Shown: positions 3,550 to 44,006 of the stretch, piece by piece | How the letters are laid out: each line of letters opens with the position of its first letter | Position numbering within the stretch: position 1 is the stretch's first letter | Source of the DNA: Octopus vulgaris | Taxonomy: Eukaryota | Assembly: GCA_951406725.2 (NCBI GenBank) | Contig: OX597837.1 | Location: 11,966,001-12,030,000 of the forward strand | Reading direction: 5' to 3' | DNA length: 64,000 nucleotides | Translations under genes and position numbers: made by a program | The notes under the pieces: generated by a model | The model's input: only the letters and a program-made list of their open reading frames with translations | Told to the model about the DNA's origin: nothing | Database searches by the model: none

Positions 3550-4290
3550 AATTACTAGGTTGAGGAAAACGCTTGTGCACCATGTTAAAATAATGATTTT
3601 TTATGCAAGAATTTATTCAAAAACAACAACTATTCTTCAAAATAAACATCATCATTTTCCACGACCTTCTGCCAATGATCTGCAAGATTTCAGATTTGGT
3701 CAAAGTACCAATGTTTCAGCTTTGAATGGAAAAATTCTTGACAGGCTTCTTCAACTTCATCGAATGATTCAAATCGGTGACCTTTCATAAAGTGCTGCAT
3801 TGATCGGAAGAGACCGTAATCAGGTGGAGCAAGGTCTGGACTATAGGCTGGATGCAGCAGAACATCCACATCGCCTAATTCTTCAATCCAGTTGCTGGTC
3901 TTTCTGGTGGTATGTGGCTTTGCATTGTCTTGTTGAAACAAAGCACGTTTTTGATGAACAATTCTTGGGTCCTTTTCAACCAGTGCATTGTAGACACAAT
4001 CAAGTTGCTTGCAGTACAGTTCAGCATTGATAGCACAACCATTAGATGTAATGTATATGACAATTTCAAACCACTTGAAAGAGATTGGAAAAACAAAAAA
4101 AACTTGAGAAACAGGTGCCACACGAATTGAATGACAACCAAAAAAAAGGCCGTTTTGAAGTGTTGTCTTCCCTTCTTTTATGCAACAAGAATGACCCATT
4201 TCTCGACCAGATTGTGACTTGCAATAAAAAGTGGATTCTTTACGACAACTGGTGATGCTCAGCTCAGTGGTTGGATGCCAACAAGAGTAC
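3550..4290 (-). mobile_element. Degenerate mariner (DD34D) transposon with an internal inversion
   Basis: Minus strand: QQDNAKPHT...LLHPAYSPDLAPPDYGLFRSMQHF. Plus strand ~4190-4285: DPFLDQIVTCNKKWILYDN. Confidence 0.8.
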
Positions 4291-4433
4291 GTTTAGGCAG
4301 CTATTTAATGGAACCATGGTGATGGTGTGGCATATATATATACACATATAAATAGATGAGTGTATTTTTACCTTGTTAACAATTAACACGGAAAAATATT
4401 TGATTTACACCTGCGTTAAACTCCATTTATTTA

Positions 4434-15100: not shown

Positions 15101-16554
15101 TTTAGTAAAATAACTTAGTTATCATTGAGCTAGTGTTAGGAACATAAATTGTGACTAAGGTTTGGTGGAAGATTTTAATTCAAAATTTATGAAAACAAGA
15201 CATTTGTAACAGGTAATTTTACATGCTACATATCATCATCATCATCGTTTAACGTCCGTTTTCCATGCTAGCATGGGTCGGACGGTTCAACTGGGGTCTG
15301 GGAAGCCAGAAGACTGCACCAGGCTCCAGTCTGATCTGGCAGTGTTTCTACAGCTGGATGCCCTTCCTAACGCCAACCACTCCGTGAGTGTAGTGGGTGC
15401 TTTTTATGTGCCACCTGCACAGGTGCCAGGCGAGGCTGGCAATGGCCACGATTCGGATGCTGCTTTTTACGTGCCACTGATATATATATATATATATATA
15501 GTCAAATCTTCCACCCCATGCCAGCATGGAAAGTTGACATTTAACGATGATGATTGCCTCAAGCATGACTGTGTAATTAAGAAGTTTGTTCCCACCATGT
15601 TTATGCGTATCTGATTTTACTGTCATGGATGTCGAGATCTGTGTTTAAATTCAGGAAGGTTAGGAAGCCGTGACTAAGATACCAGGCGGGATTAAAGCAC
15701 GTCAACTCACCAGACAGGAACACAATAACATTTCAATCTAATATCATACATATTCACCACAACAACAAGGAAGCATTGACCTGCTATAAATAGCAGCTAA
15801 ATTTCTTAGAAAAATGTAAACCATCTCTAGAAAACAAAACACCAAAAAACACGGGCATAGGAGTGGCTGTATGGTATGTAGCTTGCTTACGAACCACATA
15901 GTTCTGGGTTCAGTCCTACTGCGTGGCACCTTGGGCAAGTGTCTTCTACTATAGCCTCGGGCCGACCAAAGCCTTGTGAGTGGATTTGGTAGACGGAAAC
16001 TGAAAGAAGCCCCTCGTATATATGTATATGTGTGTGTGTGTGTATGTTTGTGTGTCTGTGTTTGTCCCACCAACATCACTTGACAACCGATGCTGGTGTG
16101 TTTATGTCCCCGTAATTCAGCGGTTCGGCAAAAGAGACCAATAGAATAAGTACTAGGCTTACAAAGAATAAGACCTGGGGTCGATTTGATCGACTAAAGG
16201 TGGTGCTCCAGCATGGCCACAGTCAAATAACTGAAACAAGTAAAAGAGTAAAAGATTGAAAAAAAAAAAAAACCAAACACAATTTGGGATGGGACAGCCA
16301 CAACTGGAATGTCTGTTATGTGTCTGTTTGATCAGGGCTAATTGATAGTAATTGTTTTTTTGTTTAAGGTACAGGGTGGATGTTTCCTTGTTTCTGTAGA
16401 AACAGGTTTAATAGTGGGGAAATATTACCTTATTTGGAAAGAAGTGAGGGGGTTTGGTGTCAGTGGTGGGGCATTTGGCTGTAGAAAGTCAGCCGCAACA
16501 GATTCTGTCTTTGCCATGGGATCATGGGAAAGTAGACTTTGAAATGATGATGAT

Positions 16555-16591: not shown

Positions 16592-17401
16592 TGTGTAGTA
16601 AGAAAAGAGAGAGAATGTAAAAAAGAAACAGAATGTCTGTGAGGGAGAGAGAGAGAGAGAGAGGTAATAGTGTGTTAGAAGGAAAAGGGAGTGTGTGTGA
16701 GAGAGAGGTAGAATGTAGCCTGTGGATGAGAGAGAGAAATAGATAGAATATATTATGAGGGAGTGGGAGAGAGAGAGATAGAAGATAGTGTGAAAGAAAG
16801 AGAAAAAGAGGAGATAGTGTGTGTGAGAGGAAGAGAGGAGATATAAGGTCTGTTTTATCTGTGTGTGTGTGAGAGAGAGAGAGTATTTCTTTATTTACCA
16901 TAAGGTTGAGAAAAAGAGGGGTCGATAGGAGGACAGGCAAAACAAACATTGGGGTCAGGGTATTGAATAAGATGAGACGAAACAACAATATGAGTAAACA
17001 AACAATTAATATATACAATTAAATGAGAATTAAACAAAAAATGAAGCGGGCAGTGTAATGGGTGTCACAAAAAAGGAATATGGGTGTGTATATATTTATT
17101 TATGTATAGTCATGTGTGTGTGTATATATATACATATATCTGTGTGTGGGTGTGGGTGTATACACTACTCTTTATATTTCTCTATGCATGTGTCTGTAAT
17201 TGTAGATATATCTGGCAGCCAAGGCAACCCAGCTAGTGACCACCCCCATCATTGTGTATACCAGGAACTAGATTATTCAATGTGTTTACTTTCATGTTTA
17301 AAGTAGCAGCGTGTATAATCTGAGGGTAATTTGACTGCTATTTCTGACAGTTTGAGTATCTACATAGAGGCTCCTTTGTTGGCCTCCATGTTCATTTCTC
17401 C

Positions 17402-17440
<39 letters not shown>

Positions 17441-17491
17441 GTGTAGGAAGAAATGGAGCTGAATGAAGATTTAACAAAATTCCTTTTTATT

Positions 17492-17577
17492 ATTTTCTAC
17501 ATATGTTTCAAAAGCTGCAAAGTCCATAATTCGGATTGAATAAGGAGTCCATTTTGCAGCCTTCTCTTCAGGAAAAT
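17492..17577 (-). ncRNA. Inverted copy of the 17702 hammerhead
   Basis: Near-exact reverse complement in the left arm of a ~180-bp inverted repeat. Confidence 0.7.
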
Positions 17578-17701
17578 CCAGGAACTTAATTCTCCAACAA
17601 AATGCACAGCAAGCTTTTCGACAAACGCTCACGAGGAGCCCTTGGAATAAATGGCACAAACTGTCTATGCTGTGCATTTTGTTGGAGAATTAAGTTCCTG
17701 G

Positions 17702-17787
17702 ATTTTCCTGAAGAGAAGGCTGCAAAATGGACTCCTTATTCAATCCGAATTAGGGACTTTGCAGCCTTTGAAACATATGTAGAAAAT
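17702..17787 (+). ncRNA. Putative type I hammerhead ribozyme
   Basis: Stem I attttc/gaaaat; CTGAAGA; 12-bp stem II gaaggctgcaaa/tttgcagccttt; GAAAC-atat-GTA with cleavage predicted after 17781. Confidence 0.8.
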
Positions 17788-18082
17788 AATAAAAAGGAAT
17801 TTTGTTAAATCTTTGTTCAGCTCCATTTCTTCCTACACTAAATATATAAAACTTAAAATTTCCGCACTAAGGCACGGATTTTAGGCCCCATGGCTGTAAT
17901 CTCAACCATGCTTTTTCTGTTGTGATTTTTGCTACCCAGGTGTCGGTTATCATTTGAATAATCCGTAATAAGATAATTCATTTATCTACTTCAATATATA
18001 TATATATATATATGTAAGAATGTTTATGGGTATATATGGGCACTTATACATACCATAGCTTGTGACATGTGTGTGCACTTAT

Positions 18083-18510: not shown

Positions 18511-19530
18511 TATACTTTTGAAAAATGCTAAATTGTTCTACTACACTTTGACAATTTTCATATCTTGGCATCGGGAGCAACTGGAGATACGATAGTTTGA
18601 CCAAATGAATCAGCTGTTGTAAGTAAAATTAAATATTGTAAAAAAATGTATTTCAAAGCAGTGCTCCAGCATGGCCACAGTCAAACGACTGAAACAACTA
18701 AAAGAATAAAAGAATTAGCCAAATTTGGACACACAACAGTTTAACATAGTAACAATGATGTGTATATATATATATATATGTGTATATATATAGGTGCAGG
18801 AGTGGCTGTGTGGTAAATAGCTTGTTTACCAACCACATGGTTCCGGGTTCAGTCCCACTGCGTGGCACCTTGGGCAAGCCTTGTGAGTGGATTTGGTAGA
18901 CGGAAACTGAATGAAGCCCGTCGTATATATGTATGTATATATATATGCATGTGTGTGTTTGCCCCCCTAGCATTGCTTGACAACCGATGCTGGTGTGTTT
19001 ATGTCCCTGTTACTTAGCGGTTCGGCAAAAGAGACTGATAGAATAAGTACTGGGCTTACAAAAGAATAAGTACCGGAAGTACCGGGGTCGAGTTGCTTGA
19101 TTAAAGGCGGTGCTCCAGCATGGCCGCAGTCAAATGACTGAAACAAGTAAAAGAGTATATATATATATCTATATCATCATCATCATCATCATTTAACGTC
19201 CACTTTCCATGCTGGCATGAGTTGGACAATTTGACTGAGGACTGGTGAACTAGTTGGTTGCACCAGGCTCCAATCTTAATCTGGCAGAGTTTCTACAGCT
19301 GGATGCCCTTCCTAATGCCAACCACTCCGAGAGTGTAGTGGGTGCTTTTATGTGCCACCAGCACGAGGGCCAGTCAGGCGGTACTGGCAATGGCCACGAA
19401 AATATCGTGTATTTTTTTTATGTGTCACCTGCGCACCGGCACAAGTGCCAGGAAGGCGATGCTGAAAAACATAAATCCAAAAAAAGGAAGAATACTCTAA
19501 GAAATCGACCTTGTCTAGCTTTAATATATT

Positions 19531-20434: not shown

Positions 20435-20606
20435 AGGCGCAGGAGTGGCTGTGTGGTAAGTAGCTTGCTAACCAACCACATGGTTCCGGGTTCAGTCCCA
20501 CTGCGTGGCACCATGGGCAAGTGTCTTCTACTATAGCCCCGGGCCGACCAATGCCTTGTGAGTGGATTTGGTAGACGGAAACTGAAAGAAGCCTGTCGTA
20601 TATATG

Positions 20607-20637
<31 letters not shown>

Positions 20638-20862
20638 GTATGAGTGTGTGTGCTTGTGTGTCTGTGTTTGTCCCCCTAGTATTGTTTGACAACTGATGCT
20701 GGTGTGTTTATGTCCCCGTCACTTAGCGGTTCAGCAAAAAGAGACTGATAGAATAAGTACTGGGCTTACAAAGAATAAGTCCTGGGGTCGAGTTGCTCGA
20801 TTAAAAAGGTGGTGCTCCAGCATGGCCGCAGTCAAATGACTGAAACAAGTAAAAGAGTAAAG
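20435..20862 (+). mobile_element. tRNA-derived SINE, family B (representative copy)
   Basis: Head ggcgcaggagtggctgtgtggtaag...gggttcagtccc. Near-identical copies at 15855-16255, 18792-19155 and 21552-21945 (+), and 14085-14480, 27891-28300, 35500-35878 and 39960-40318 (-), plus many fragments. Confidence 0.85.
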
Positions 20863-26831: not shown

Positions 26832-27610
26832 GCATGGGTTGGACGATTTGACTGAGGACTGGTGAATCAGATGGCTGCACCAGGCTCCAATCTTGATCTG
26901 GCAGAGTTTCTACAGCTGGATGCCCTTCCTAACACCAACCACTCCAAGAGTGTAGTGGGTGCTTTTACATGCCACCGGCGCGAGGGCCAGTCAGGCGGAG
27001 GGCCATGATTTGAATTAGTCATACGTTATGTTGTAGCTTTGAGATTTTGGTGATGTGATTGTTTTCTTTTAGTAAAACATTGTAGGTTACGTGTAAGAGA
27101 CTGTAATTGGCCAATTTGTATTTGGCCAAATACTCCAACTCGCATGGCTCAGTGGTTAGAGCGTCGACCTTACGATCGTGAGGTTGTGAGCTCGAATCCC
27201 GGACCGGGCTGCGTGTTGTGTTCTTGAGCAAGACACTTTATTTCACGTTGCTCCAGTTCACTCAGCTCTAAAAATGAGTTGCTACGTCACAGGTGCCAAG
27301 CTGTATCGGTCCCTTTGCCTTTCCCTTGGATAACACTGGTGACGTGGAGAGGGGAGGCCGGTATGCATAGGCGACTGCTGGTCTTCCATAAACAACCTCG
27401 CCCGGACTTGTGTTTAGGAGGGTAACTTTCTAGGTGCAATCCCATGGTCTGTGTCGTGACCGAAGGGGGTCTGCGATTTGGCCAAAATATTGCATTTTGG
27501 CCGGGTATGTCTGGTTTAAATGCTAAAGGGCTGGAAATCCTCCAAGCAATCCTTGTCATCTCAACATCCATGCCTTATTCAATCTCTCTCTCTCTCTCTT
27601 CTTCTTTCAG

Positions 27611-27756
27611 ATAAATTTTATAGTGTGTCAGCTCGTGGCCCTTCTCCTGGGTATTCCATTCCGCAGAGTTTTGTCACCGAGGAAAACCAGTACGACAGTA
27701 CGGCATTTGGTGGAGGTGCTTGTTGGTGTCGCACTGACTGTCTTCTGTTTCGGATA
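27611..27756 (+). CDS. MBOAT1/2: MBOAT1/2-like lysophospholipid acyltransferase, first visible coding exon (INFIVCQLVALLLGIPFRRVLSPRKTSTTVRHLVEVLVGVALTVFCFG)
   Basis: Polypyrimidine tract ending cttctttcag, donor gtaagt at 27757. 146 nt, phase 0 to 2. Peptide matches the N-terminal 'NF.vCQl.AL...FR..L...RH.....G.....FCFG' pattern of MBOAT1/2 and oysgedart. Confidence 0.9.
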
Positions 27757-28645
27757 GTAAGTATTCCTTTCCAACTCTTCTTCACATTTACTCTCTTTGT
27801 CTCTCTCTCTCTCTGGGATTTTTTCCTACTTTTCTTAACATGAAACCAATGGTAGCCTTAATTCACAAATAAAGAATATATATATATATACTCTTTTACT
27901 CTTTACTCTTTTACTTGTTTCAGTCATTTGACTGCGGCCATGCTGGAGCACCGCCTTTAATCAAGCAACTCGATCCCGGGACTTATTCTTTGTAAGCCCA
28001 GTACTTATTCTATCGGTCTCTTTTGCCGAACCGCTAGGTGACGGGGACATAACCACACCAGCATCGGTTCTCAAGCGATGTTGGATGGGACAAACACAGA
28101 CACACAAACATACACGCACACACACACACACATATATATATATACATATATAAGACGGGTTTCTTTCAGTTTCCGTCTACCAAATCCACTCACAAGGCTT
28201 TGGTCAGCCCGAGGCTACAGTAGAAGTCACTTGCCCAAGGTGCCACGCAGTGGGACTCAACCTGGAACCATGTGGTTGGTAAACAAGCTACGTACCACTA
28301 TGTAAAACAGAGTAATTAGCGAGGGATTATCAATCCAGGCGAAATACTTACTAAGCTCTCTGTTAGTACTCCAGTCTGACAACATGTTTTCGATTAGTAA
28401 ATCTTTGCGTATTCTTGTGGCAGGGTCCAAGGTTATAAGTTCATCACCGAACGGGCTGATTGAGTAAACCTATCAATAACGAACCCTTAACGACTATTGG
28501 CAACAGGTGTAAGTCAAATTTACTGCAATAAACAAAAATAATTATTTATGCGCTGTCTTCTCTGCGTGTGTGTGTTGTGTTGTGTGGGTGTATATATGTA
28601 TGTATATATATATATATATATATACATACATACATACATATATAC

Positions 28646-28676
<31 letters not shown>

Positions 28677-29378
28677 CATATACATACATATATACTTATA
28701 TATATACATACATATATACATATATATATGCATATACATACATATATACATTTATATATATATACATACATATATATATATATATATGTATGTATGTATA
28801 CACACTCAGCTGTAGAAATGAGTTATGACATGACTGGTGCCAAGCTGTATTGGCCTTTTGCCTTTCTCTTGTCAAGCCATCCCACCCATGCCAGCACAGA
28901 AGGTGGATGTTAAACGACAACGATGATGATGATGATGTGTGTGTGTGTGTGTGTGTGTGTGATAGGCTTCCACACTGTTTCTATTTACCAAATTTATTCA
29001 AAGGGCATTGGTTGGCCCAGGACTATAGTCAAGGGCATTTGTCCAAGGTACTGCATAGTGGGCCTGAACCTGAAACCACCTGATTGCAAAGCAAGCTTCC
29101 TAGCCACCCAACCATGCCTGCATCAATTACTGTATAAAAAAATAAAATAAAATAAAATAAAAATAATACATTTTACAAAATGCTCATGTCTTGAACAGAA
29201 GTTCTGAAGCCTTAAATTTTATTTAAACCCCGCCCCCAAAATAGTGGGTTACCTAGAGACCCTTTTTTTTTCTGGTATTTGAGAACTACTGCCCCATAAT
29301 TGATGATTTCCATGTAAATTCCAACACTAATCAATTGTTTTTTTTTCTACTTTCTCTTTTGATTTTTTTCTTGTCCAG

Positions 29379-29549
29379 TCAAGTATGGCACATTGTGGCT
29401 CAGTCCGCTGTGACATACATTATCCTGTTAGTGGCGCCGGCGATGCTGGCCCATAAGATTGTTTTTGTGTTTGCCATGGGTTACCTGTCCTGTATGCACA
29501 TCTACCGGCAGTATTACGATTACGGAGGATATACAATGGATATAACTGG
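29379..29549 (+). CDS. MBOAT1/2: MBOAT1/2-like exon ((Y)QVWHIVAQSAVTYIILLVAPAMLAHKIVFVFAMGYLSCMHIYRQYYDYGGYTMDIT(G))
   Basis: Acceptor ttgtccag, donor gtaagt. 171 nt, phase compatible with the previous exon. Carries the conserved YLS..HI.R...DYG.Y..DITG motif. Confidence 0.95.
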
Positions 29550-29579
29550 GTAAGTAAGCGGAGCAATAAGATATCACCA

Positions 29580-29859
29580 TGCGTGCATGTGTGTGTGTAC
29601 GTGTGTACGTGTGTCTCCACGTGTTCTCTGTGCATGTATGTATGTATGTGTGTGTGTGTATGTATGTGTGTGTATGTATGTATGTGTGTGTATGTATGTG
29701 TGTGTGTATGTATGTGTGTGTGTGTGTGTGTATGTGTGTGTGTGTGTACGTGTGTCTCCATGTGTTCTCTGTGCATGTATGTATGTATGTGTGTGTGTAT
29801 GTGTGTGTGTATGTATGTGTGTGTGTATGTATGTGTGTGTGTATGTATGTGTGTGTGTA

Positions 29860-29898
<39 letters not shown>

Positions 29899-29915
29899 GT
29901 GTGTGTGTGTATGTA

Positions 29916-29956
<41 letters not shown>

Positions 29957-30030
29957 GTGTGTGTGTGTGTGTGTGTACGTGTGTCTCCATGTGTTCTCTG
30001 TGCATGTATGTATGTGTGTATGTCCATCTG
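29580..30030. repeat. (GT/GTAT)n minisatellite with three copies of gtacgtgtgtctcca(c/t)gtgttctctgtgcatg
   Basis: Direct inspection. Confidence 0.9.
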
Positions 30031-31189
30031 TGTGTGAGTCTACATGCTCTTAGTTATAGCTTTACCTGCTTCAAGTCCTGAAGTTAAAAAAATAATTGTT
30101 TCATGTTCTCTCAGAGTTTCTAAATTCTTATGTCATAAACCTCTTGCAATTCTTGATGGTAAAAACAAAATTTTCAAGGTGTGTAATGTTTGTCATTCCT
30201 ACACAAGATGGGGGTTCAAATCCCACCAGTGGCCTTTGAGTTTTTTTATCCAATGTTTTTTTAACCCAATATTTACAAGCTATTATAAATCGAATGACTT
30301 ATTTTTTTATAGGCCTAGTACTTATTCTATCAGGCTCTTTGGCCAAACTGCTAAGTTACAGGGATGTAAATACACCAACGTTGCTTGTCAAGTGATGGTG
30401 GGGGTACAAACACAGACACACACACATGTATATAGGACAGGCTTCTTTCAGTTTCCGTCTACCAAATCCACTCACAAGGTTTTGGTCAGCCTGAGGCTAA
30501 AGTAGAAGACACCTGCCCAAGGTGACACACAGTGGGATTGAACCTGGAACCATGTGGTTTGTTAGCAAGCTACTTACCACACAGTTACTCCTATATATAT
30601 ATATATATATCGATGCCGAGTCAAGTACATCAACATCAGCAATATCAAAATCAAATCAAATGGAAATTGTATTTGTGAGCCCCGTGCCGGTAGCACGTAA
30701 AAAGCACAATCCGAACGTGGCCAACGCCAGTGCTGCTTTGACTGGCTTCCATCCTTGTGGCACATAAAAAGCACCATCCGATCATGGTCGATGTCAGTTC
30801 TTCTGGCCCCTTGTGCCGGTGGCATGTAAAAAGCATCCACTACACTCTTGGAATTTTGGTGTCAGGAAGGGCATCGAGCTGTAGAAACACCACCAGACCA
30901 TATTGGGGTTTGGTGCAGCCTCCTGGCTTCCCAGACCCCAGTTGACCCATTCAACCCATGCCAACATGGAAAACGGACGTAAAATGATGATGATGATGAT
31001 GATGATACACACACATACACACAAAGAGCTTCTTTCAGTTTCCATCTGTCAAACCTACTCACAAGGCTTTGTTCGACCCAGTGCCATTGTAGAAGCCACT
31101 TGCCCAAGGTGCCACACATAGGCACTGAACTTTGTATATCTGTGTGTAAATGTATTTCTCTGTGTGTATATATATATATATATATATAC

Positions 31190-31531
31190 GTTTAAATATT
31201 TGTTGTGCAAGATTTTTTATGTGAAGTCGTGTGTTGAAACAGATATTGTTATATTTCGGAATGGTCATTTTGCTAGTTTAGCCAATAAAAACACACACAC
31301 TATATATTTGGTGTTATTTTGCTTCAGTGTTATCTATTTTTTTACATTAATCTTAATATTATTTCGGCCAATGATGCGGTCACAGGAGTGTGACGAAAGA
31401 ACTCTGGCCGAAATAAGATTAAGATTAATGTAAAAAATAAATAACACTGAAGCAAAATAACACCAAATATATAGTGTGTGTGTTTTTATTGGCTAAACTA
31501 GCAAAATGACCATTCCGAAATATAACAATAT
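31190..31531. mobile_element. Fold-back, Penelope-like-terminus element in (TA)n; relative at ~52905-53165
   Basis: Inverted arms 31243-31370 and 31405-31531 with a degenerate hammerhead at the apex. The relative keeps CTGAAGA...GAAA on the minus strand (53025-53052). Confidence 0.6.
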
Positions 31532-31605
31532 ATATATATATATTTGTACATACATAACATACACACTTTTTAATTAGCCGCTAATTATTGTTTTTTGATT
31601 GACAG

Positions 31606-31716
31606 GCCTCTCATGATCAGCAGCCAAAAGCTGACCAGTCTGGCATTCAACCTCTACGATGGCAGGTATCGCGACGACAAAGATTTATCGAAAAGCCAGC
31701 GCCAGTATGCTGTCAA
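31606..31716 (+). CDS. MBOAT1/2: MBOAT1/2-like exon (PLMISSQKLTSLAFNLYDGRYRDDKDLSKSQRQYAV(K))
   Basis: Acceptor ttgacag, donor gtacgt. 111 nt, in frame. Carries the conserved GPLM...QK.TSLAF...DG motif. Confidence 0.95.
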
Positions 31717-32945
31717 GTACGTAGATATTGGAGTATTTTAATCATGTGATCTCACGACCTCATGACCTTTGTGTTGTTCATCTTATTCTTGTTGTTATTG
31801 CTGAGCTCCAGATATCAAAGCTGTTCCAGATATGACCACTCCATCGTTTTTTTTTTATTTTTGGTTCTCCATGGTGGTTTGTGATTCGTTGAGGGAGTTT
31901 GGTTAGTATTTCTAGCAGATGTAGTGACCACATAGAAAATGCCCGTGATGTGTTGTTTTATTATTTTTTTGTATTTGTGTTTTGTATTTGCAATCCTTTT
32001 ATCTTTTTACTTGTTCCAGGCACTGTGCTGCGGCCATGCTGGGGCACCACCCTTGAAGGGCTTGAGACAAACGGGTTCAGCGCTAGCGCTCATTTTTAGA
32101 AGTTTGGTAGTTATTCTGTCAGTCTCTTTTGCCACAACTGCTAAGTTATGGGGATGTAAACAAACCAACACTGGTTGTCAAATTGTGGAGGGACACAAAC
32201 ACAGATACAAGAACAGACACAGACACACATATATGTACACTCACATGTGTACACACACATACATGTATATACACACACACACACATATATATACACACAC
32301 ACATACACATTCCCAAGATAGATAAAGGTCCTTCCTGAGTCTTATAGACTCATAAGGGCTGGTTTCCTGGCCTCCATAACATATATATTCCCCACCTGAG
32401 TGGGCTGGAGTATCGTGAAATAAAGAGTCTTGCTCAAGAGCACAATGCATTGCTCGGCGCAAGAATTGAAACCGCGATCTTACAATCACAAGTCCAACAC
32501 CCTAACCACTAAGCCCCCACCACACACACACACAGCAGGCTTCTTCATAACTTCCATTTATCAAACTCACTCACGGCCCCAGAACTGTAACAGAAGACGG
32601 TCAGTGAGATTGAACCCGAAATTACATGGTTGCAAAGCGACCTTCTTAGCCATGTAACCATGCCCGCTGTGTATTATATTAGACAAACTCATGCCAGAAG
32701 TATGTAATTTCATTACGAACTGCTGTGTGTGACGCCAGCCAAAATATTCAGACAAGCTGCTGCTGCTGCTGCTACTGCTGCTGCTGCTGCTGCTGCTGTT
32801 GTTGTTGTTGTAGTATGTGACATTAAACAAATCAAACTGTCTGTGTGACATTAGAGAAAGTTTTAAGCAGGTCTGTTGTGTCTCACGAGACTTTAGACTA
32901 ATAACTGGCAGCTGACTGGTATTTCATTACAGTAATTTATGCATC

Positions 32946-32982
<37 letters not shown>

Positions 32983-34589
32983 GTTAATTAACAAGCTGCT
33001 GTGCCGGTGATCGTTATTTACAACTGCTTAATTGTCTTAATGATTTTTCTCACCCACCCACCCACCCCCCGCCAATTATGAATAATGTGAAACTGAAAGT
33101 GTTTATGGTATCAGAGTCTCTCCTTATGCGTTCATTGACCCCCTGTTTTTACACCCTGTTGCAGGGGCGGACCGAGAGTATTAAGGGCCCTCGGGCATAA
33201 CTGTTTACTGGGCCCCTTTGAATGAGTGTTTTAGTAGAGTTAACATGGTAGTGTGGAGGCACATGGCCTAGTGGTTAGAGCTGCGGACTCGCGGTCGAGG
33301 GATCGCGAATTCAAACTACCTGGTCACAGGAGTAGTGTATAAGTGGCCGAGTATTCCACAGAAGCATGTCTTATAAACGTAATTGCAATGCTGTTGGTGG
33401 TAGTTGTTGAGTGACTGTGGTTTTTTTTTTTTTTTGTGGCAGTGGTGGGCGCATAAAGAATTATTGTTGTGGTGTTACCAATAGTTGCAATGATGGGATT
33501 TGAATGTTATAAAGGACCATAACCATAGCCCTAAAACACCTCCAAATATTTCCATTTTCAGCCGATGTTCAACGAACCCTTCAAATCCACCACCCTATCA
33601 AATTCGATGACTGGCGTCCATGCTAGCAGGGTGCAAAGAGCACCATACGAGCATGATTATTGACGGAACGGCCAACCGGCTTCTGTGTCAGTGGCACTTA
33701 AAGGGCACCATTCGAGCGTGATCGTTACCAGCATCGCCTTACTGGCACTTATGCCCATGCTAGTAGGGTGCCAAGAGCACCATCCGAGCGTCATCGTTGC
33801 CAGAGCAGCCAACTGGCTTCTGTGCCAGTGGCACGTAAAAGGGCACCATTCGAGCGTGATCATTACCAAAGTCGCCTTCTGGCACCTGTGCTGGTGGCAT
33901 GTGTAAAAGGATTCGAGCGAGGTCATTGCCAGTATCGCCTGACTGGCCCCCGTGTAGGTGGCACGTAAAAAGCACCCACTACACTCTCGGAGTGGTTGGC
34001 GTCAGGAAGGGCATCCAGCTGTAGAAACTCTGCCAGATCAAGACTGGAGCCTGGTGCAGCCATCTGGTTTGCCAGCCCTCAGTCAAAACCGTCCAACTCA
34101 TACTAGCATGGAAAACGGACGTTAAACAATGATGATAATAATAATAATAATGAAATTATTGTATACAGTGCTCAGGTGCACCACAACTTGTCAGAGTATA
34201 TGCAGTAATGCACAAATATCTGGAAAGCGAACAGTGTATGAGTCAGATACATGCTTGTGTGTGTATGGAGGGGAGAAAATCAGGTGTAGTGTTGGCGAAT
34301 CTCAGTAAGCATGGAAGTTTTGAAGGATGCAGTGCTCCGACAACTAACAACTGATGCCGGCAGTTTGTTCCATGCTTCAGCAACTCTCAGCGTGAAAAAA
34401 TGTTTCCTAAAGTCATGGGAGCTGTGCTGTTTTCTGACTTTGTAAATATGTCCACGGGTTTTAGACAGGTGGAGTTTGAAAAGGTGCTCAGAGTTATTGT
34501 TTGTACGATGGTTGATAATTTTATGATGATTATGATGATATTAATTATTATTATTATTATTGTTTTAATGCTTTGTCTTTTGGTTTCAG

Positions 34590-34719
34590 GTCGATGCCAT
34601 CGCTGCTTCACTTTACCAGTTACATGTTTTACTTTCATGGAATCATTATCGGTCCTCTTGCCTTCTATGCAGACTACATGCATTTTATAAACGGAGACTG
34701 GTACCGAGAGTGGGAAGTT
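34590..34719 (+). CDS. MBOAT1/2: MBOAT1/2-like exon (SMPSLLHFTSYMFYFHGIIIGPLAFYADYMHFINGDWYREWEV)
   Basis: Acceptor tggtttcag, donor gtaagt. 130 nt, in frame. Carries the conserved PSLL...SY.F.F.....GP...Y.DY..FI.G motif. Confidence 0.93.
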
Positions 34720-35335
34720 GTAAGTAAAACGTGTTCTTGGTATTAAGTACCATTCGTTTAGGGAGCATTCGGGTGGAACTATCAGCACCCCGGACACAAT
34801 GCGTGGCTGGGTTTCGTCTGTCTTTATGTTCTGAGTTCGAATTCCGCCAAGGTTGACTTTGCCGTTCATCCTTTCGGGGTTGATAAAATACGTAGCAGTC
34901 AAGTACTGGGGCTGATGTAATCAACCAGCCCTCTTCCCCCCCCATCCCCAAATTTCAGACCTTGTGCCTATAACAGAAAGGATTATTATTGATGCAAAAA
35001 TGGTGAGCTGGCAGAATCGTTAGCATGCTGAACGAAATGTTTAACCCTTTTGTGACCAACCCGGCTGAAACTGCCTCTGGCTCTGTAGTACAAATGTCTC
35101 GTTTTCATAAATTTTGAATTAAAATCTTCCACCAAACCTTAGTCACAATTTATGTTCCTAACACTAGCTGATTGCAAGTTCAATTCCAGGCAGTTACCTG
35201 AATAATAATAATAATAATAATAATACTAATGATAAAGATAATGATAATGATGATGATAATAATAATAATAATAATAAAAACAACAACATTGAAAAATTCC
35301 TTAGGAATGAGAACCCATGTTTGAAATTTCCCCAA

Positions 35336-35381
35336 AACACCTGATGAAGGCTGGAAGGTATATCAGCCGAAATGTCATGTT
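35336..35381 (+). ncRNA. Putative minimal hammerhead within a tRNA-headed SINE
   Basis: aacac-CTGATGA-a-ggctgg..tcagcc-GAAA-t-GTC-atgtt. Confidence 0.65.
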
Positions 35382-36201
35382 AACAACAAACAAGATGAGG
35401 ACAAATATCCATCAAATGTAAATAATGTAAATAATTCCTCATCTCTTAAATACAGAACTGTAAAGGCTAAACAATTAAACCAATGATAATCATATACACT
35501 TTTACTTGTTTCAGTCATTTGACTGCGGCCATGCTGGAGCACCGCCTTTAGTCGATCAAATCGACCCTGGGACTTATTCTTTGTAAGCCCAGTACTTATT
35601 CTATCAGTCTCTTTTTGCCGAACCACTAAGTGACGAAGACATAAACACACCAGCATCGGTTGTCAAGCAATGCTAGGGGGACAAACACAGACACACAAAC
35701 ACACACACATATACGACAGGCTTCTTTCAGTTTCCGTCTACCAAATCCACTCACAAGGCTTTGGTCGGCCCGGGGCTATAGCAGAAGACACTTGCCTAAG
35801 ATGCCACGCAGTGGGACTGAACCCGGAACCATGTGGTTGGTTAGCAAGCTACTTACCGCACAGCCACTCCTGCGCCTATGATAAATGATAATGAAATATT
35901 TTTTCCCCAGGATCTCAACTTTCTACATTTTTGTCCCTGCCTTCCCAGTTCCTTGTCCTTTTCCTTCCTCATGAGGTAGATACAGCTATTCCAAAACGCC
36001 ACTATTAAATTCTTTAAAATACTGAAATTTAAAAAGAAAAATTATTTTCTAAAAGTAAATTTTATTTCTAAAACATAACTTATATCTTAAAAGAATTAAC
36101 TAACATTTATTTATTTTATTTTAAAGAATTTAAAAGATTAAAACGAATTTTTTCCTATCTTATATTTCATTTATTATTATTATTATTTTTTCCTGTTCTA
36201 G

Positions 36202-36249
36202 GACGGCCGAATAGTTCAGAAGCCTTTAGAAAATGTGCCATCGCCAAGA
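36202..36249 (+). CDS. MBOAT1/2: MBOAT1/2-like 48-nt exon (DGRIVQKPLENVPSPR)
   Basis: Acceptor tttttcctgttctag, donor gtaagt. Symmetric phase 0-0. Ends in the 'PSP' that precedes the next helix in this family. Confidence 0.8.
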
Positions 36250-37018
36250 GTAAGTTTCTCTTCATCATTCTCTTTTTTTTTATATAATTTTATTTTTCTG
36301 TTATATCTTGGGAGGGTCATTATGCCAGTAAGGACACACACACAGACACACTTGTTCGGTTTCACTTCTTTTTATTCTAGTTAACCATTTAACTAATAAA
36401 TCAATCATTGAATCAGTCAACCAGACAGTCAGATTCGTCAAAGGCCATTCATTATCGTTCACAATCTCTATTCTGATTGACTGAATGATTAACCAAACAA
36501 TTGATTGCTTAAACAGTTAATTAGTTGACTAATAATCATAATGAAAGCAGTGAAATCGAGTTCCCAGGTTGAAGTCCCTGGTGTTAGCGTTTTCGCTGGG
36601 AGATCAGGTAAATTATCTCCCCTACAACAAGGGAGATAATCTATCATTACTAACTAAAACTGGGAGAGAAAAAACTGCCAAAATCTGTTCACACACACAC
36701 TCTCTCTTATGCATGCGTGAATTCTCGGGTAGTATATTGTCCGGACCAAGGGATCCAAGGAGACGCACAGAGATATTAAAAAAAAAAATTTAAAAAAAAA
36801 CGAGGGCGTGGAGTCTCATGAATTTTTGACGTGGTTGAGGTTGGTCTCACCCCTGTCCCATCCAGGGTCCTGAAAGCAACTTTGCTGTAGCTTGTAAAAT
36901 TTCTCCTGGAGGCCACACACAACTGGAACCCTCATCATGGTAACTGGTGGAGTTTCCCCCCCCCCTTCCCACTTGTTTATGTAAACAAGGTGGACAGATT
37001 TGTCCAGTTTTTAATTGT

Positions 37019-37248
37019 TTAACCCTTTAGCATTCAAACCGGCCATATCTGGCCAAAATATTTAACCTGTTTTATATTGAAACTGACCAGATCTTGCCTC
37101 TCACCTCAGCCCTACCATGTCCATTCTAAAACTAAAAAAATCACATCACTGAAATCTCTAAACTACAAGATAATGCAGGATTAATTCAAACCATTTTAAA
37201 TAAACAAACATCACATTTGACAGAATAATCTGAACATTAAAGGGTTAA
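37019..37248. mobile_element. Second TTAA-flanked piggyBac-like MITE family
   Basis: ttaaccctttagcattc...aaagggttaa. Fragments also at ~11704, 25308, 27010-27530 and 58757. Confidence 0.65.
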
Positions 37249-37327
37249 AATGTCAGAACCTCTTCTGTGATGAATGAGATTTGTTGTTCTGGTAACTGTG
37301 ACTTTGTTTTTGTTTTTCTGTTTGTAG

Positions 37328-37418
37328 GTGGCTGTTACGAAGAAGCTTATCGGCGCCTGTGTTTGTGCTGTCATCCTGCTCACAATGCCGAAAATCATCC
37401 CGCCACAGAAGATGCTGG
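37328..37418 (+). CDS. MBOAT1/2: MBOAT1/2-like exon (VAVTKKLIGACVCAVILLTMPKIIPPQKML(E))
   Basis: Acceptor tttgtag, donor gtacgt. 91 nt, phase 0 to 1. 'AV.KKL' followed by a hydrophobic helix. Confidence 0.88.
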
Positions 37419-38859
37419 GTACGTTAACATTAACAAACTTTTTTGTGCCAACCTCGTCTGGCACCTGTGCCAGTGACACGTAAAAGCACCATCCGATTGT
37501 GGCCGTTTGCCAGCCTCGTCTGGCACCTGTGCCGATAGCACATAAAAAGCACCCACTACACTCACTGAGTGGTTGGCGTTAGGAAGGGCATCCAGCCGTA
37601 GAAACATTGCCAGATAAGACTGGGCCTGGTGCAGCCTTCTGGCTTCCCAGACCCCAGTTGAACCGTCCAACCCATGCTAGCATGGAAAGCGGATGCTAAA
37701 CGATGATGATGATGACATCCGAATCTCCATCTCTTGTTCCTTGTTTGCTTGATGTCTGATGCTGTCAAGCTTTCTTCTGTCTGTAAACTTAATCACGTCT
37801 GTACTCCAACTTAAAAATTAAAGTACTGCTTATTTGTACTTGTGGTAGCATTCAACCAGGTTGAGTTGAGCCAGCTTCGACCAACGACTCCTGGGCTGCG
37901 CAGGGCATTGAGCTTCTTGCACGAAACACTTCATTTTATGTTGCTTTGTGATCACTTATGGCACAGTGCGCACCAGATCATCATCATCATCATTCCTTAT
38001 CGTCATCGCCACCATCATCATCATTGCCATTGCCATCATCATTCCTCATCATCTTTGCTACCATCATCATCATAATTATCACCATCATCATCAGGGATCA
38101 TCACATCCCTCACAAAAGCTGACCACATCTGACAGCTGGCCATAGTTGAGGCCTTAATGGTTGAAAAATGCCCCGCAGGGAGAGCAATGGCGTCGGATAT
38201 ATTACAGATGCTGTAGCTGCAGTAGTATTCACCAGAGGTGAGTTGAGCCGGCTCTGACCAACAAATTCATCAAGACCCTCTCAGATACTGACCACATCCA
38301 ACAGTTGGCCACAATCAAGGCTGTAATAGTTGACAAATGCCCCACATAGAGGGCAAATGCACCAGAGAGCGCAGGTGCTGTAGCCATAGTCATAATTCGC
38401 TGTTGAGGTGTAGAGTTCATGTGTACTTTCGTTAGTTTGTTACTCCCTTCCTGGCCCCTTTTCTCTCTTGCCTCTTATAATGCTGGATTACCTTAGATGC
38501 TCATCGTTTACACAACTCATCCTATCACTTTTTCAATTTTTGTTCCTCCCTTTTTTTTGCTTCACCTTTGCCAATGATCCCTTCCTTCTCTCCCTCATTC
38601 CTTGTCATACTCCCCCCATCCTCCTCTTACCTTTTCCTCATCACTCACTCATTCTTCTATTCTTGCTCAGTTATAGGGGCCACTTTAGGTGCATAACCTT
38701 GGTCTGACACAGGATTCCCCATTTTTGCCAGCTGAGTGGACTGGAACAACATGAAATGAAGTGTTTTGCTCAAGAACACAACACATCACTCTTATTTACA
38801 CAAAACATATGGAACTTTCCGTTTGAGTATATCGTTTTCTTTCTTTTTTTCCCTTTCAG

Positions 38860-38961
38860 AACCTGATTTCATGGAGAACACCAGTTTCCTGTGGAAGGTA
38901 CTCTACATGACGGTAGCCGTATCGTTTGTACGAGAGAAATACTATTTTGCTTGGGTCCTAA
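38860..38961 (+). CDS. MBOAT1/2: MBOAT1/2-like exon (PDFMENTSFLWKVLYMTVAVSFVREKYYFAWVL(T))
   Basis: Acceptor ccctttcag, donor gtaagt. 102 nt, phase 1-1. Carries the conserved R.KYYFAW.L motif. Confidence 0.95.
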
Positions 38962-39199
38962 GTAAGTTGGATGAATCCTACTTTCTGTAAACAGCACTGT
39001 CTTAACTTTCACTTGCTGCAGTCATTAGGCTGCGGCCATGCTGGGGCACCACCTTGAAAAATTTCTAGTCGAATGACTCAACCCCCCACCCCCAGGACTT
39101 GCCTGTGTTAAGCCAGGTGCTTATTCTGTTGATCTCTTTTTGTCAGATTGCTAAATTACGAGGATGTAAACACACCAACGCCGGTTGTCAAGGGGTGGT

Positions 39200-39243
<44 letters not shown>

Positions 39244-39806
39244 TCGTAGTCGTGGCTAATGCTGGTGTCATGTTACTGCTGGCACCTGTTCCAGTGGCAC
39301 ATAAATTTTAAGCCCCAAATATTAGGGGCTTCCTTATACACGTTAAAATGTGGTATTTCAAAGTTATTGTACCTTGGAAAATGGAGATCTTTCAAGTTGA
39401 TGTTTGTTTTTTATATGTAAAACCCTCCTTGTGAAGACCTGTTGAGGCAAGTGAAAATGAAAATGAAATTCAAAATCGAAATCGATCAACATCAATGGAA
39501 ATTGTAGCTGTGATACCAGTGCCGATGGCACGTAAGAGAACCATCCGAACGTGGCCGTTGCCAGCCTCGTCTGGCCTCCGTGCAGGTGGCACGTAAAAAG
39601 CACCCACTACACTCATGGAGTGGTTGGCATTAGGAAGGGCATCCAGCCATAGAATCACTGCCAGATCAGACTGGAGCCTGGTGCAGCCTTCTGGCTTCCC
39701 AGACCCCAGTTGAACCGTCCAACCCATGCTAGCATGGAAAGCGGACATTAAACGATGATGATGATCATGTAGTTGCTACACACAAAAAACGAACATTATA
39801 TATACA

Positions 39807-39863
<57 letters not shown>

Positions 39864-39864
39864 G

Positions 39865-40466
39865 CAGTTATACCCTGACTATCGCGGCTGTTACGTTCTA
39901 ACCCCACCACCCCACCCCGTGATAGGTGAAAATCCGCGAAGTAGAAACAGTACTGTACTTTACTCTCTTTTACTTGTTTCAGTCATTTGACTGCGGCCAT
40001 GCTGGAGCATCGCCTTTTTTTTAATCGAGCAACTCGACCCCTGGACTTATTCTTTGTATGCCCAGTACTTATTCTATCGGTATCTTTTTGCCGAACCGCT
40101 AAGTGACGGGGACATAAACACACCAGCACAATGCTAGGGAGACAAACACAGACACACAAACACACTCACACATATATACATATATACGAAGGGCTTCTTT
40201 TGATCGGCCCAAGGCTATAGTAGAAGACACTTGCCCAAGGCGCCACGCCATGGGACTGAACCCGGAACCATGTGGTTGGTAAACAAGCTACTTACCACAC
40301 AGCCACTCCCGCGCCTATACTGTACTGTATATTTTTTTAAGTTATTTTTATAATTTATATATATTTATTTTATTTTAAAGGCAAAAAACAACACCGCGGA
40401 GGAATCGACGTAAGCTTAAATAATAAAACCGCGATAGGTGAACCGCGATACTGCGCGGGGTTACTG
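39865..40466. mobile_element. pogo/Tigger-like MITE interrupted by a SINE (39960-40318)
   Basis: Termini cagttataccctgactatcgcgg / ccgcgatactgcgcggggttactg; the host sequence tactgtac resumes after the SINE. Confidence 0.55.
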
Positions 40467-41302
40467 TATACGCACACACACACACGCGCGAACAATAACG
40501 CAGCGGGGAGTGAGCATGATTCGACGATTGAAAGAAATCGTATGCAAAACGAAATACTTCAGTAGTTACCTCCCTTTGGCCACTCGCACGCGCGCCTAAT
40601 AATTCCATTGGTGTTTCAAAGTTTTTGTTTCCCAGATTCGATCGATCACACAAACACACACACACACACACACTGATAAACGGTGAACTGAATTGATATT
40701 TAGGCCAGGGAACGGTGGGTAGCTGTACTTTTCAAGGCCTTTTTATGTTTTTTTTTTCATTTTTATTTTAATGATATCTTTACTTTATGAAGCGATTGAG
40801 TGCTACACTAGTCGCTGAAAACCATACCACACACACACACACATATATATATGTATGTATGTGTGTATATATATATACATACATACATACATATATATAT
40901 GTATGTATGTATGTGTATATATGTATGTATGTGTGTATATATATATGTATGTATGTGTATATATGTATGTATGTGTATATATATATGTATGTATGTATGT
41001 GTATATATGTATGTATGTGTATATATATGTATGTATGTGTATATATGTATGTATGTATGTATGTGAATATATATATGTATGTATGTGTATATATATGTAT
41101 GTATGTGTGTATATATAGATAGATAGATAAATATCTGTGTGTCTATCTATCTATCTATCAATCTATATATATATATATATCCATGTGTATATTATCTATC
41201 TGCCTATCTATCTATCTGTCTATGTTGTTATTTTCATATATGTTGTTTTGTTGTTTTATTCCATGTGCTGTTGTTGTTGTTGCTGTTTACCTCCCAACAC
41301 AG

Positions 41303-41406
41303 CCGAAGCAGTGAACAACTCTGCCGGATTAGGATTCAATGGTTTCGACGAAAAGGGGGAAGCCAAATATGACCTGTTAGAGAACGTCAATATATACGGA
41401 GTGGAG
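41303..41406 (+). CDS. MBOAT1/2: MBOAT1/2-like exon (EAVNNSAGLGFNGFDEKGEAKYDLLENVNIYGVE)
   Basis: Acceptor caacacag, donor gtttgt. 104 nt, phase 1 to 0. Carries the conserved A.NN.AG.GF.G.D..G....DL..N..I..E motif. Confidence 0.95.
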
Positions 41407-42130
41407 GTTTGTATCCCTTTTAATTCTTCTCCCACCTCTGTCTGTCTGTCTGTCCGTCCCTCTCTCCTACATGTTCACTTGCACATGTGGGACACTTTTG
41501 CTGGTTTCAAATGCAGACATTCTAAACTGCATCCCAGGAAAGGCCACTCGGACCATACGTGTTATTAGGGATGAAACCACTCACCATCTACTCACTGCAA
41601 GTCTGCTCTTCACTCTGACAAGCATTTCTATTACTACTACTACTACTGCCTATGCCACCACCACCACAACCAGGAGGTCAGTAGTAGTAGAGTCAACATA
41701 TGAGTTTCTCAGTTGGAGTCAGTGTCAGTTATGTGATGTATAGAGAATACCAAACTAATTCCCTATGGATACCGTATTTATTACAACGAGTGGCTTTCGC
41801 TCGTTAGATACGTTTACAAGCCACGAGTTGTAATAAATACGGTATCCATAGGGAACTCGTTTGGTATTTTATTTATTACACACGAATAAACGACCATATT
41901 TTATTAACCCAATAACTAAATTCTTCACGTTTAGTTGTAACTTATGAATGACAAAAGTAGTGCCGTCACCGTGACCTCAAGTCATCACCATGGATTGACC
42001 AATCAGAAGCAGCGCTGTCACCGTGACCTCGGGTCATCACCATGGATTGACCAATCATAAGCAGCGCTCGCAGTATCTGACATATATTAGATACCAAAAA
42101 TATCTCAAAGTGTTCTCACTCACATGTGTG

Positions 42131-42183
<53 letters not shown>

Positions 42184-42187
<4 letters not shown>

Positions 42188-42368
42188 GGTCCGGGTTGAT
42201 TCGGGGTTAACCACAGTAAATAAGGTACTCAATACATAGCAGAGTAAAATTAATTTATTATATAGAAGGAGCTTCTACAGGACTAGTACTGTTTCATTCA
42301 AGAGAAAGCTTCCTGAAGATTTCTCTTGAATGAAACAGTTCTAGTCCTGTAGAAGCTCCTTCTATATA

Positions 42369-42374
<6 letters not shown>
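42184..42374. mobile_element. Fold-back, Penelope-like-terminus element in (TA)n
   Basis: Inverted arms 42253-42307 and 42320-42374, between long (TA)n tracts. Confidence 0.6.
42307..42357 (+). ncRNA. Putative type I hammerhead ribozyme
   Basis: Stem I agcttc/gaagct (6 bp); CTGAAGA; short stem II ttc-tctt-gaa; GAAA; stem III ACAG/CTGT; GUA triplet, cleavage predicted after 42351. Confidence 0.7.
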
Positions 42375-42419
<45 letters not shown>

Positions 42420-43484: not shown

Positions 43485-43575
43485 CTTTTACATGTCATCG
43501 GGACAGGTGCCTTTTAGATGTCATCGGGACAGGTGCCTTTTACATGTCATCGGGACAGGTGCCTTTTAGATGTCA
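43485..43575. repeat. 26-bp tandem repeat, about 3.5 copies
   Basis: Unit ctttta(c/g)atgtcatcgggacaggtgc. Confidence 0.9.
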
Positions 43576-43762
43576 CCAGTGCAGTGCCCTTTACGTGTCC
43601 TCCCCCAGTGCTGCTCACAAGCCTTTGATCATCCCCTTGTCCATAGTAAAAAAACACTTGCTGCGCAGTGAGATTGAACCTGAGACCTCATGTTTAGGAA
43701 ACAACCTTCCTACCCACCGACCCAATGTCTCCCTACAATTTTCCAATTCCTTTGTTTTGCAG

Positions 43763-43960: not shown

Positions 43961-44006
43961 GTAAGTTAGCTGTTGATTTCTCTTTGAGCGGGTGTATATA
44001 TGTGTG

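What the first reader, a model, noticed from the sequence alone, without database searches (positions are those of the whole stretch)
17432..17847. Near-canonical hammerhead duplicated in a ~180-bp inverted repeat
Seen: the + copy (17702-17787) has a perfect 6-bp stem I, CUGAAGA, a 12-bp stem II, GAAAC, palindromic ACAUAUGU and a GUA triplet. A near-exact mirror copy lies on the minus strand. The arms differ at only a few positions, which suggests a young insertion. Inference: a transcript from either strand contains one ribozyme plus its antisense, so hairpin formation would compete with self-cleavage and could act as a built-in switch.
Basis: partly seen in the sequence, partly recalled or inferred. 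Interest (0 to 1): 0.7.

Follow-up and report, generated by a model that had tools for sequence, protein, structure and literature searches.

The report
Penelope retroelement end inserted back-to-back
This hairpin is the short tail end of a common ribozyme-carrying jumping gene, lying twice back-to-back in an intron, a layout already known for this class of elements; the hairpin is predicted to keep the ribozyme off all the time, so it is likely not a switch.

Summary
In detail: a 181-bp inverted repeat (4 mismatches) with a type I hammerhead motif on each strand. It is the 3' end of an endonuclease-bearing Penelope-like retroelement (PLE), closest to the Hydra clade. Longer copies lead into an RT + GIY-YIG ORF, and the ribozyme's 3' half has 493 exact matches in the genome. 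The real unit is 17431-17995: two 5'-truncated copies back-to-back in (TA)n, one ending at the pLTR end, the other carrying a ~147-nt tail. This layout is published for PLEs, and the scan noted it before in this genome. Of 59 mapped loci, 29 are such pairs and 9 carry two complete hammerheads. The switch idea is not supported: on either strand the antisense arm is transcribed first, and the hairpin beats the ribozyme fold by about 113 kcal/mol. The insert lies in intron 1 of an MBOAT acyltransferase gene. Two side results: all 29 pairs join one tailed and one untailed arm, apparently from one source, which favours two primings over fold-back; and the family lacks Hydra's zinc-finger-like linker yet still sits in (TA)n.

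The parts
17404..17436 (.). (TA)n microsatellite on the left, the likely insertion target; overlaps the element's own TATATA at the pLTR end
   Evidence: Sequence; 87 of 90 family 3' ends are followed by at least 4 TA within 34 nt
17431..17668 (-). Untailed arm: 5'-truncated PLE copy covering positions -232..+5 relative to the pLTR end; includes the 56-nt 'spacer' 17612-17667, which the other arm lacks
   Evidence: Mapped to the long copy L035 at 97% identity
17492..17577 (-). Type I hammerhead motif of the untailed arm; predicted cut 17498/17497; two private changes (one in loop II, one G-C to G.U in stem II)
17668..17848 (+). Tailed arm, pLTR part (-175..+5)
17702..17787 (+). Type I hammerhead motif: stem I 6 bp, CUGAAGA, stem II 12 bp (G10.1.U11.1) with a long structured loop, GAAA, palindromic stem III, GUA; matches the family majority at every position
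17692..17802 (+). Predicted extension of stem I: 8 further base pairs (17692-99 with 17795-802) beyond an internal loop
   Evidence: RNA fold; prediction only
17849..17995 (+). PLE 'tail' (~147 nt), present on one arm only; its last ~10 nt match the start of the leader in front of the ORF in the near-full-length copy L037
17995..18013 (.). (TA)n microsatellite on the right
   Evidence: Sequence
27608..27754 (+). Coding exon 2 of the host MBOAT lysophospholipid acyltransferase gene; exon 1 lies about 7.8 kb upstream of the window, so the insert is in intron 1 on the sense strand
   Evidence: tblastn of P0121

Best explanation
The locus is a 5'-truncated insertion of a Penelope-like retroelement in which two copies of the element's 3' end lie back-to-back in a (TA)n run, likely made when both cut ends of the target primed reverse transcription on one element RNA, and in the host pre-mRNA the resulting hairpin is predicted to keep the hammerhead permanently unfolded. 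Shown: family membership, the RT + GIY-YIG ORF in longer copies, the two fixed 3' end points (pLTR end and tail end), the one-tailed plus one-untailed pairing, the shared variants of the two arms, and the intronic position. Inferred: the endonuclease cuts both strands of (TA)n; one end primes at the internal TATATA at the pLTR end and the other at the tail end ~147 nt downstream; both cDNAs stop early and are joined head-to-head over a few shared bases. The hammerhead belongs to the parent element. There it would cleave weakly, as a dimer through its palindrome or with the element's protein, to process precursor RNA. In this dead copy it is a passenger.
For: The family is large: 493 exact matches to a 27-nt pattern, 0 for the reversed control. 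[quoted passage not shown] The same motifs stand in the Hydra proteins of the supplement of PMC8557442 (compared by eye). Architecture in 59 of 60 fetched loci that mapped: 29 back-to-back pairs, all one tailed plus one untailed, none inward-facing; 30 single arms. Chance of 29 of 29 under independent choice is about 1e-9. Arms differ 1.65% within a locus against 4.7% between loci (22 loci, 0 of 5000 permutations as low), and 56 non-majority alleles are shared by both arms. 5' ends lie within 45 nt of each other in 12 of 19 overlapping pairs (shuffle mean 5.8, p=0.002). In 16 of 29 pairs, and in this one, each arm holds sequence that the other lacks. Literature: inverted 5'-truncated copy with a one-sided tail (PMC8557442, PMC3846280); hammerheads on opposite strands 100-700 bp apart (PMC4209133); both target strands cut and extended from two internal start sites that define the tail (PMC11167929). 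Folding.
Against: Pfam found no RT or GIY-YIG in the ORF, and a PDB profile search gave only a weak retron RT hit, E=0.014; the assignment rests on motifs and homologs. No tandem direct pLTR upstream of an ORF was found; only 1 copy reaches the 5' leader. The tail is ~147 nt, not 30-40. Similar arms could also come from gene conversion, or from two RNAs of one active source. Over all 29 pairs the 5' ends do not correlate (rho 0.22, p=0.25); only the overlapping pairs do. PMC11167929 saw no difference in start site between the two strands in vitro. PMC3846280 proposed self-priming instead. Folding energies are predictions and ignore proteins and splicing kinetics.
Confidence: 0.88

Rival explanations
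1. Regulated ribozyme switch: hairpin and hammerhead folds compete in the intron and control cleavage of the host pre-mRNA.
For: The insert is in intron 1 of a protein-coding gene with an unmutated hammerhead on the sense strand. A transcript starting between the arms, or heavy A-to-I editing of the hairpin (abundant editing in octopuses is recalled, not tested), could free it.
Against: The antisense arm comes first on both strands and the hairpin wins by 113-115 kcal/mol. The same layout occurs at 9 of 59 mapped loci. Even alone, monomer stem III has a pairing probability of 0.04-0.07, and metazoan PLE hammerheads cleave poorly even as dimers (PMC4209133). The arms carry ordinary decay, including both strands of one CpG.
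Confidence: 0.04
2. Fold-back (self-priming): one cDNA snaps back and copies itself, which makes the inverted arm.
For: It explains near-identical arms and correlated 5' ends. It is possible for the 13 of 29 pairs in which the tailed arm reaches as far 5' as the other or further. Self-priming was proposed for rotifer PLEs (PMC3846280).
Against: At this locus the untailed arm has 57 nt that the tailed arm lacks, and the tailed arm has the tail, so neither can be a copy of the other. The same holds for 16 of 29 pairs, and 8 pairs do not overlap at all.
Confidence: 0.06
3. MITE: a non-autonomous DNA transposon with 181-bp terminal inverted repeats inserted at TA.
For: Long, near-perfect inverted repeats flanked by TA.
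Against: Arm lengths differ at every locus, one arm always has a tail, half of the loci have one arm only, and long copies run into an RT ORF.
Confidence: 0.01
4. Non-LTR retrozyme: a tandem hammerhead repeat that yields circular RNA.
For: Type I hammerhead with a palindromic stem III; retrozymes are proposed PLE derivatives (bioRxiv 10.64898/2026.07.22.740005).
Against: No head-to-tail units here. Among the 100 listed matches I saw 17 opposite-strand neighbours within 5 kb and no same-strand neighbours (counted by eye).
Confidence: 0.01

Closest known systems
EN+ Penelope-like elements with an inverted 5'-truncated pLTR and one-sided tail (PMC8557442 Fig. 2 legend; PMC3846280)
   Same: Head-to-head inverted copy, tail at one end only, strong 5' truncation, (TA)n target, hammerhead in the pLTR
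   Different: Tail ~147 nt instead of 30-40; here the one-tailed plus one-untailed pairing is counted (29 of 29); no direct tandem pLTR found
Hydra clade of PLEs (PMC8557442 section 11), including Hydra-1_Obim (2507 bp)
   Same: DKT, DHK and GLYRDD motifs; CxxC..E..N..CxH around the C-terminal endonuclease; no CCHH; canonical-core hammerhead starting CUGAAGAG; (TA)n insertion
   Different: CxCX5C linker replaced by a Cys-free Asn-rich stretch; RWF instead of RWK; ATG to pLTR end 3466 nt; hammerhead stems differ from Hydra-1_Obim; three exact strings of this family were absent from the held supplement text, whose long sequence runs are cut
Minimal or palindromic type I PLE hammerheads (PMC4209133)
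   Same: Conserved core, long stem II, tiny palindromic stem III suited to dimer cleavage; dual motifs on opposite strands 100-700 bp apart were reported
   Different: Stem II of 12 bp plus a ~30-nt structured loop; G10.1.U11.1 rather than the conserved G-C; GUA triplet; no extra base after A9
Poseidon_Ac in vitro mechanism (PMC11167929)
   Same: Two internal RT start sites define the tail; both target strands are cut and extended; AT-rich target
   Different: There the sites are adjacent, lie inside the ORF and show no strand preference; here they are ~147 nt apart, upstream of the ATG, and always used one each in pairs
Asn-rich ORF insertions of Adineta vaga Penelopes (PMC3846280)
   Same: Asn-rich in-frame insert between RT and endonuclease
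   Different: Here it is ~150 aa, in a Hydra-like element, and takes the place of the Cys linker

Membership tests
EN+ Penelope-like element | Single ORF with PLE-type RT and C-terminal GIY-YIG endonuclease | tested here: met
   879-aa open frame in L035; motifs align with 15 homologs and, by eye, with published Hydra PLE proteins. Pfam itself gave no RT or GIY-YIG hit
EN+ Penelope-like element | Hammerhead motif in the terminal repeat | tested here: met
   Core starts 135 nt before the pLTR end; 49 of 57 full-length arms have an intact core (loci were chosen by an exact match to the 3' half, so this is biased upward)
EN+ Penelope-like element | 5' truncation with an adjacent inverted 5'-truncated copy | tested here: met
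   29 of 59 mapped loci
EN+ Penelope-like element | [quoted passage not shown] | tested here: met
   One tailed arm in 29 of 29 pairs; longer (~147 nt) than the published 30-40
EN+ Penelope-like element | Partial tandem forming a direct pLTR upstream of the ORF | tested here: inconclusive
   Only L037 reaches the leader; it begins with the last ~10 nt of the tail, as a tandem or circular template would give
EN+ Penelope-like element | Target-site duplication | not testable with these tools
   Target is (TA)n; contigs of other DNA runs end at the microsatellite
Hydra clade | DKT motif in place of DKG | tested here: met
   SDKT in the ORF
Hydra clade | [quoted passage not shown] | tested here: met
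   CxxC-x-x-E ... N ... CxH at the C-terminus
Hydra clade | N-terminal RWK motif | tested here: inconclusive
   RWF in L037, the one copy that reaches it
Hydra clade | CxCX5C linker before the endonuclease | tested here: not met
   No Cys in the 169-191-aa linker of 6 of 7 long copies; the seventh is frameshifted there. All 15 aligned homologs keep Cys residues at this place. Therefore filed as Hydra-like, not as Hydra
Hydra clade | Insertion into (TA)n | tested here: met
   87 of 90 3' ends
Hydra clade | Phylogenetic placement with reference Hydra RTs | not tested
   Reference sequences were seen only as text in a supplement and were not available to the alignment tools
Type I hammerhead ribozyme (dimeric PLE type) | CUGANGA / GAAA / NUH core with stems I and II | tested here: met
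   other motifs in fetched loci keep the core and change stems I and II compensatorily
Type I hammerhead ribozyme (dimeric PLE type) | Palindromic stem III allowing an intermolecular helix | tested here: met
   8-bp self-duplex, -7.0 kcal/mol; three other palindromes in other motifs; 0.1 such motifs per shuffled set of 310,906 bases (the scan kept only palindromic cases)
Type I hammerhead ribozyme (dimeric PLE type) | Self-cleavage | not testable with these tools
   Only contigs were available, which cannot show RNA ends
MITE | Uniform length with the same terminal repeat at both ends | tested here: not met
Non-LTR retrozyme | Head-to-tail tandem units, each with a hammerhead | tested here: not met

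The most novel reading that the evidence does not exclude
Each insertion of this family is made by one RNP that primes a single RNA twice, once at the pLTR end and once ~147 nt downstream at the tail end, one site for each cut target strand: a PLE form of twin priming. The family targets (TA)n without the Cys linker that was proposed to direct microsatellite targeting, so that linker is not the targeting module.
Probability: 0.5. Interest if true: 0.45.

Novelty: new member of a known kind. Interest (0 to 1): 0.18.

Why it matters
The locus itself is ordinary: one of hundreds of truncated PLE ends, in a published layout. The family statistics are modestly useful for an open question, how PLE inverted structures form. 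The strict one-tailed plus one-untailed pairing, the shared variants and the arm-private sequence favour two primings on one template over the self-priming proposed earlier, and they name two sites to test in vitro. A (TA)n-targeting, Hydra-like family without the Cys linker is a natural counter-example to the idea that this linker directs microsatellite targeting.

Tried and rejected
Rfam: no hammerhead hit; the miRNA hits are by-products of the hairpin and of microsatellites. Pfam and PDB did not name the ORF. Presence/absence: contigs of 4 runs cover the left flank but end near the (TA)n, so no empty site could be read. Expression: no RNA holder listed. Contigs of 3 runs guessed to be RNA cover the arm and tail, some across the predicted cut site, with no joints; contigs cannot show ends and the family is multi-copy, so this is no evidence either way. 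The A>G difference at 17725 is also in the DNA run and is a subfamily variant, not editing. A pattern search for related hammerheads with shorter stem II gave 10 matches, mostly deleted family copies. The Lünse 2016 paper on dimer cleavage was not held; I saw it only as cited in passages of PMC6765202. Literature searches showed no paper on twin priming in PLEs or on this octopus family; most subscription journals and Repbase are not covered, and bioRxiv supplements were not seen.

Full report
Observation. The inverted repeat is real: arms 17431-17611 and 17668-17848, 181 nt, 4 mismatches, 56 nt apart. The plus arm holds the type I hammerhead exactly as described (17702-17787, predicted cut 17781/17782) and the minus arm its mirror (17577-17492). 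My descriptor scan finds only these two in the 64-kb window, against 0.03 loose and 0 strict hits per shuffled window over 100 shuffles. Rfam does not detect them.

It is one copy of a repeat family. A DNA search of the window's genome gave 88 matches from 40 scored of 1545 candidates. A 27-nt pattern from the ribozyme's 3' half has 493 exact matches, against 0 for the reversed control. Copies share a further ~147-nt tail beyond the right arm and then end in (TA)n, so the unit in the window is 17431-17995. Longer copies continue upstream through about 890 nt of non-coding sequence into one ORF (879 aa open in L035, 5'-truncated). The start codon is seen in L037, 3466 nt before the pLTR end.

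Which element. Pfam gave no RT or GIY-YIG hit and PDB only a weak retron RT. The ORF has 401 homologs among the 7996 candidates scored. Aligned with 15 of them it shows DKT, DHK, FYPSI, GLYRDD and a C-terminal region with CxxC..E..N..CxH and no CCHH. These are the marks of the Hydra clade of Penelope-like elements (PMC8557442; I read section 11, selected passages and search hits in the supplement). One Hydra feature fails: the CxCX5C linker is replaced by a Cys-free Asn-rich stretch in 6 of 7 long copies, the seventh being frameshifted there. Similar Asn-rich inserts are known from rotifer Penelopes (PMC3846280, passages). I therefore file it as an EN+ PLE, Hydra-like. It is not the published Hydra-1_Obim, which differs in length, hammerhead stems and protein sequence (by eye).

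Architecture. I fetched 60 loci from the first 100 listed pattern matches: 58 in list order as 2-kb pieces, skipping five already held, and two chosen as long pairs. 59 mapped to the real copy L035; L076 belongs to a sister family and did not map. 3' ends fall at two points: the pLTR end (50), the tail end (39), other (1). 87 of 90 are followed by (TA)n. 29 loci are back-to-back pairs, always one tailed and one untailed arm, none inward-facing; 30 are single arms. The single count is an upper bound, because five long copies run off the fetched piece and arms under 22 nt were filtered out. 21 pairs overlap and so form an inverted repeat, 8 do not, and 9 carry two complete hammerheads like the window. 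The inverted 5'-truncated copy with a one-sided tail is published (PMC8557442, PMC3846280). Hammerheads on opposite strands 100-700 bp apart were noted in PMC4209133 (parts 1-2 of 4 read).

How the pair arose (inferred). Arms within a locus differ by 1.65% against 4.7% between loci, and share 56 non-majority alleles (22 loci). 5' ends are close in 12 of 19 overlapping pairs (p=0.002), though not correlated over all 29 (p=0.25). In 16 of 29 pairs each arm has sequence that the other lacks. In the window the left arm has 57 extra nt and the right arm the tail, so simple fold-back cannot make it. This fits both cut ends of the (TA)n target priming on one RNA at two internal sites. A Poseidon protein cuts and extends both strands and starts at two internal sites that define the tail (PMC11167929, parts 1-2 of 4 read). 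That paper saw no strand preference of sites, and gene conversion or two sibling RNAs remain possible. The window's four arm differences are all private departures from the family majority, two of them on the two strands of one CpG. They are ordinary post-insertion decay, and this copy is no younger than its peers.

The ribozyme. Alone, stem II forms (P 0.93), stem I partly (0.47) and monomer stem III hardly (0.04-0.07). The palindrome self-pairs over 8 bp at -7.0 kcal/mol and two copies co-fold through it. Other motifs in the fetched loci keep the core while stems and palindrome change together, which points to selection on the fold in parent elements. The window copy has G.U at 10.1-11.1, where a subfamily has the conserved G-C (16 of 78 arms). 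Metazoan PLE hammerheads showed no monomer and low dimer activity (PMC4209133), and the Poseidon one cleaves only with its protein (PMC11167929). Activity here is untested.

The switch idea. The insert lies in intron 1 of an MBOAT lysophospholipid acyltransferase gene on the plus strand: exon 1 lies about 7.8 kb upstream of the window and exon 2 at 27608 (the source names the matching protein P0121 as Octopus vulgaris). So it is likely transcribed in pre-mRNA. Both hammerheads face outward, so the antisense arm is made first on either strand. In simulated growing transcripts the right arm pairs with the left as it emerges, and forcing the ribozyme stems costs 113-115 kcal/mol. The predicted state is a constant OFF. 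At most this makes such intronic insertions harmless, and it gives a long double-stranded RNA that could be edited or diced (inference). Public contigs could test neither polymorphism nor RNA ends.

Earlier notes of the scan. Two notes from other pieces of this genome reached the same reading for similar hairpins. I had formed my reading before seeing them, and they are not independent evidence. One of them reports arms from different parent copies in another family, the opposite of what I measured here.

Verdict. A real, ordinary PLE remnant: new member of a known kind, interest 0.18. The family-level pairing rule and the loss of the linker are the only parts worth following up.

Noticed in passing
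L031-L037, ORF between RT thumb and endonuclease (e.g. L035 minus strand): The Cys linker (CxCX5C) of Hydra-type elements is replaced by a ~150-aa Cys-free, Asn-rich stretch, yet 87 of 90 ends sit in (TA)n. This counts against the linker being the microsatellite-targeting module.
   Followed up: partly
Family positions -220..-204 relative to the pLTR end (about window 17640-17656, minus strand): 5'-truncation hotspot: 16 of 85 5' ends fall in this 17-nt interval, on the 5' side of a predicted hairpin. It could mark an RT stall or the start of the element's RNA.
   Followed up: partly
L037 about 1985-2170 (G000:C2:167915985): The only copy reaching the 5' leader begins with the last ~10 nt of the tail and has the ATG 47 nt further on. 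So the tail appears to be the leader that precedes the ORF in a tandem or circular template. AG-ending pyrimidine-rich stretches in tail and leader look like splice acceptors (untested).
   Followed up: partly
L042, L063, L076, L097, L102: A sister family with a more canonical hammerhead (CUGAUGA or CUGAAGA, G10.1-C11.1, GUC); L076 is again an inverted pair.
   Followed up: no
L015, L027, L033, L039, L041, L046, L098: Further, more distant hammerhead motifs with other stems and palindromes lie within a few kb of family copies, which suggests many PLE families in this genome.
   Followed up: partly
L034 and L035 (G000:C1:206.34-206.35 Mb and C1:205.72-205.73 Mb): Two loci about 620 kb apart are ~98% identical over most of 10 kb in inverted orientation, including flanks: a segmental duplication or an assembly duplicate.
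   Followed up: no
window 27608-46219 (+), exon 1 at G000:C24:11958157-11958243: MBOAT-family lysophospholipid acyltransferase gene with about 11 further coding exons in the window and a ~35-kb first intron.
   Followed up: partly
window 15853-16250, 18792-19157, 20435-20859; also 3690-4292 and 47150-47644: Several copies of a SINE-like repeat, and two ORF fragments that resemble mariner/Tc1 transposases by eye (not tested).
   Followed up: no
window 17245-17375: Left flank holds short stretches that match many other contigs at about 90%: fragments of another old repeat.
   Followed up: no
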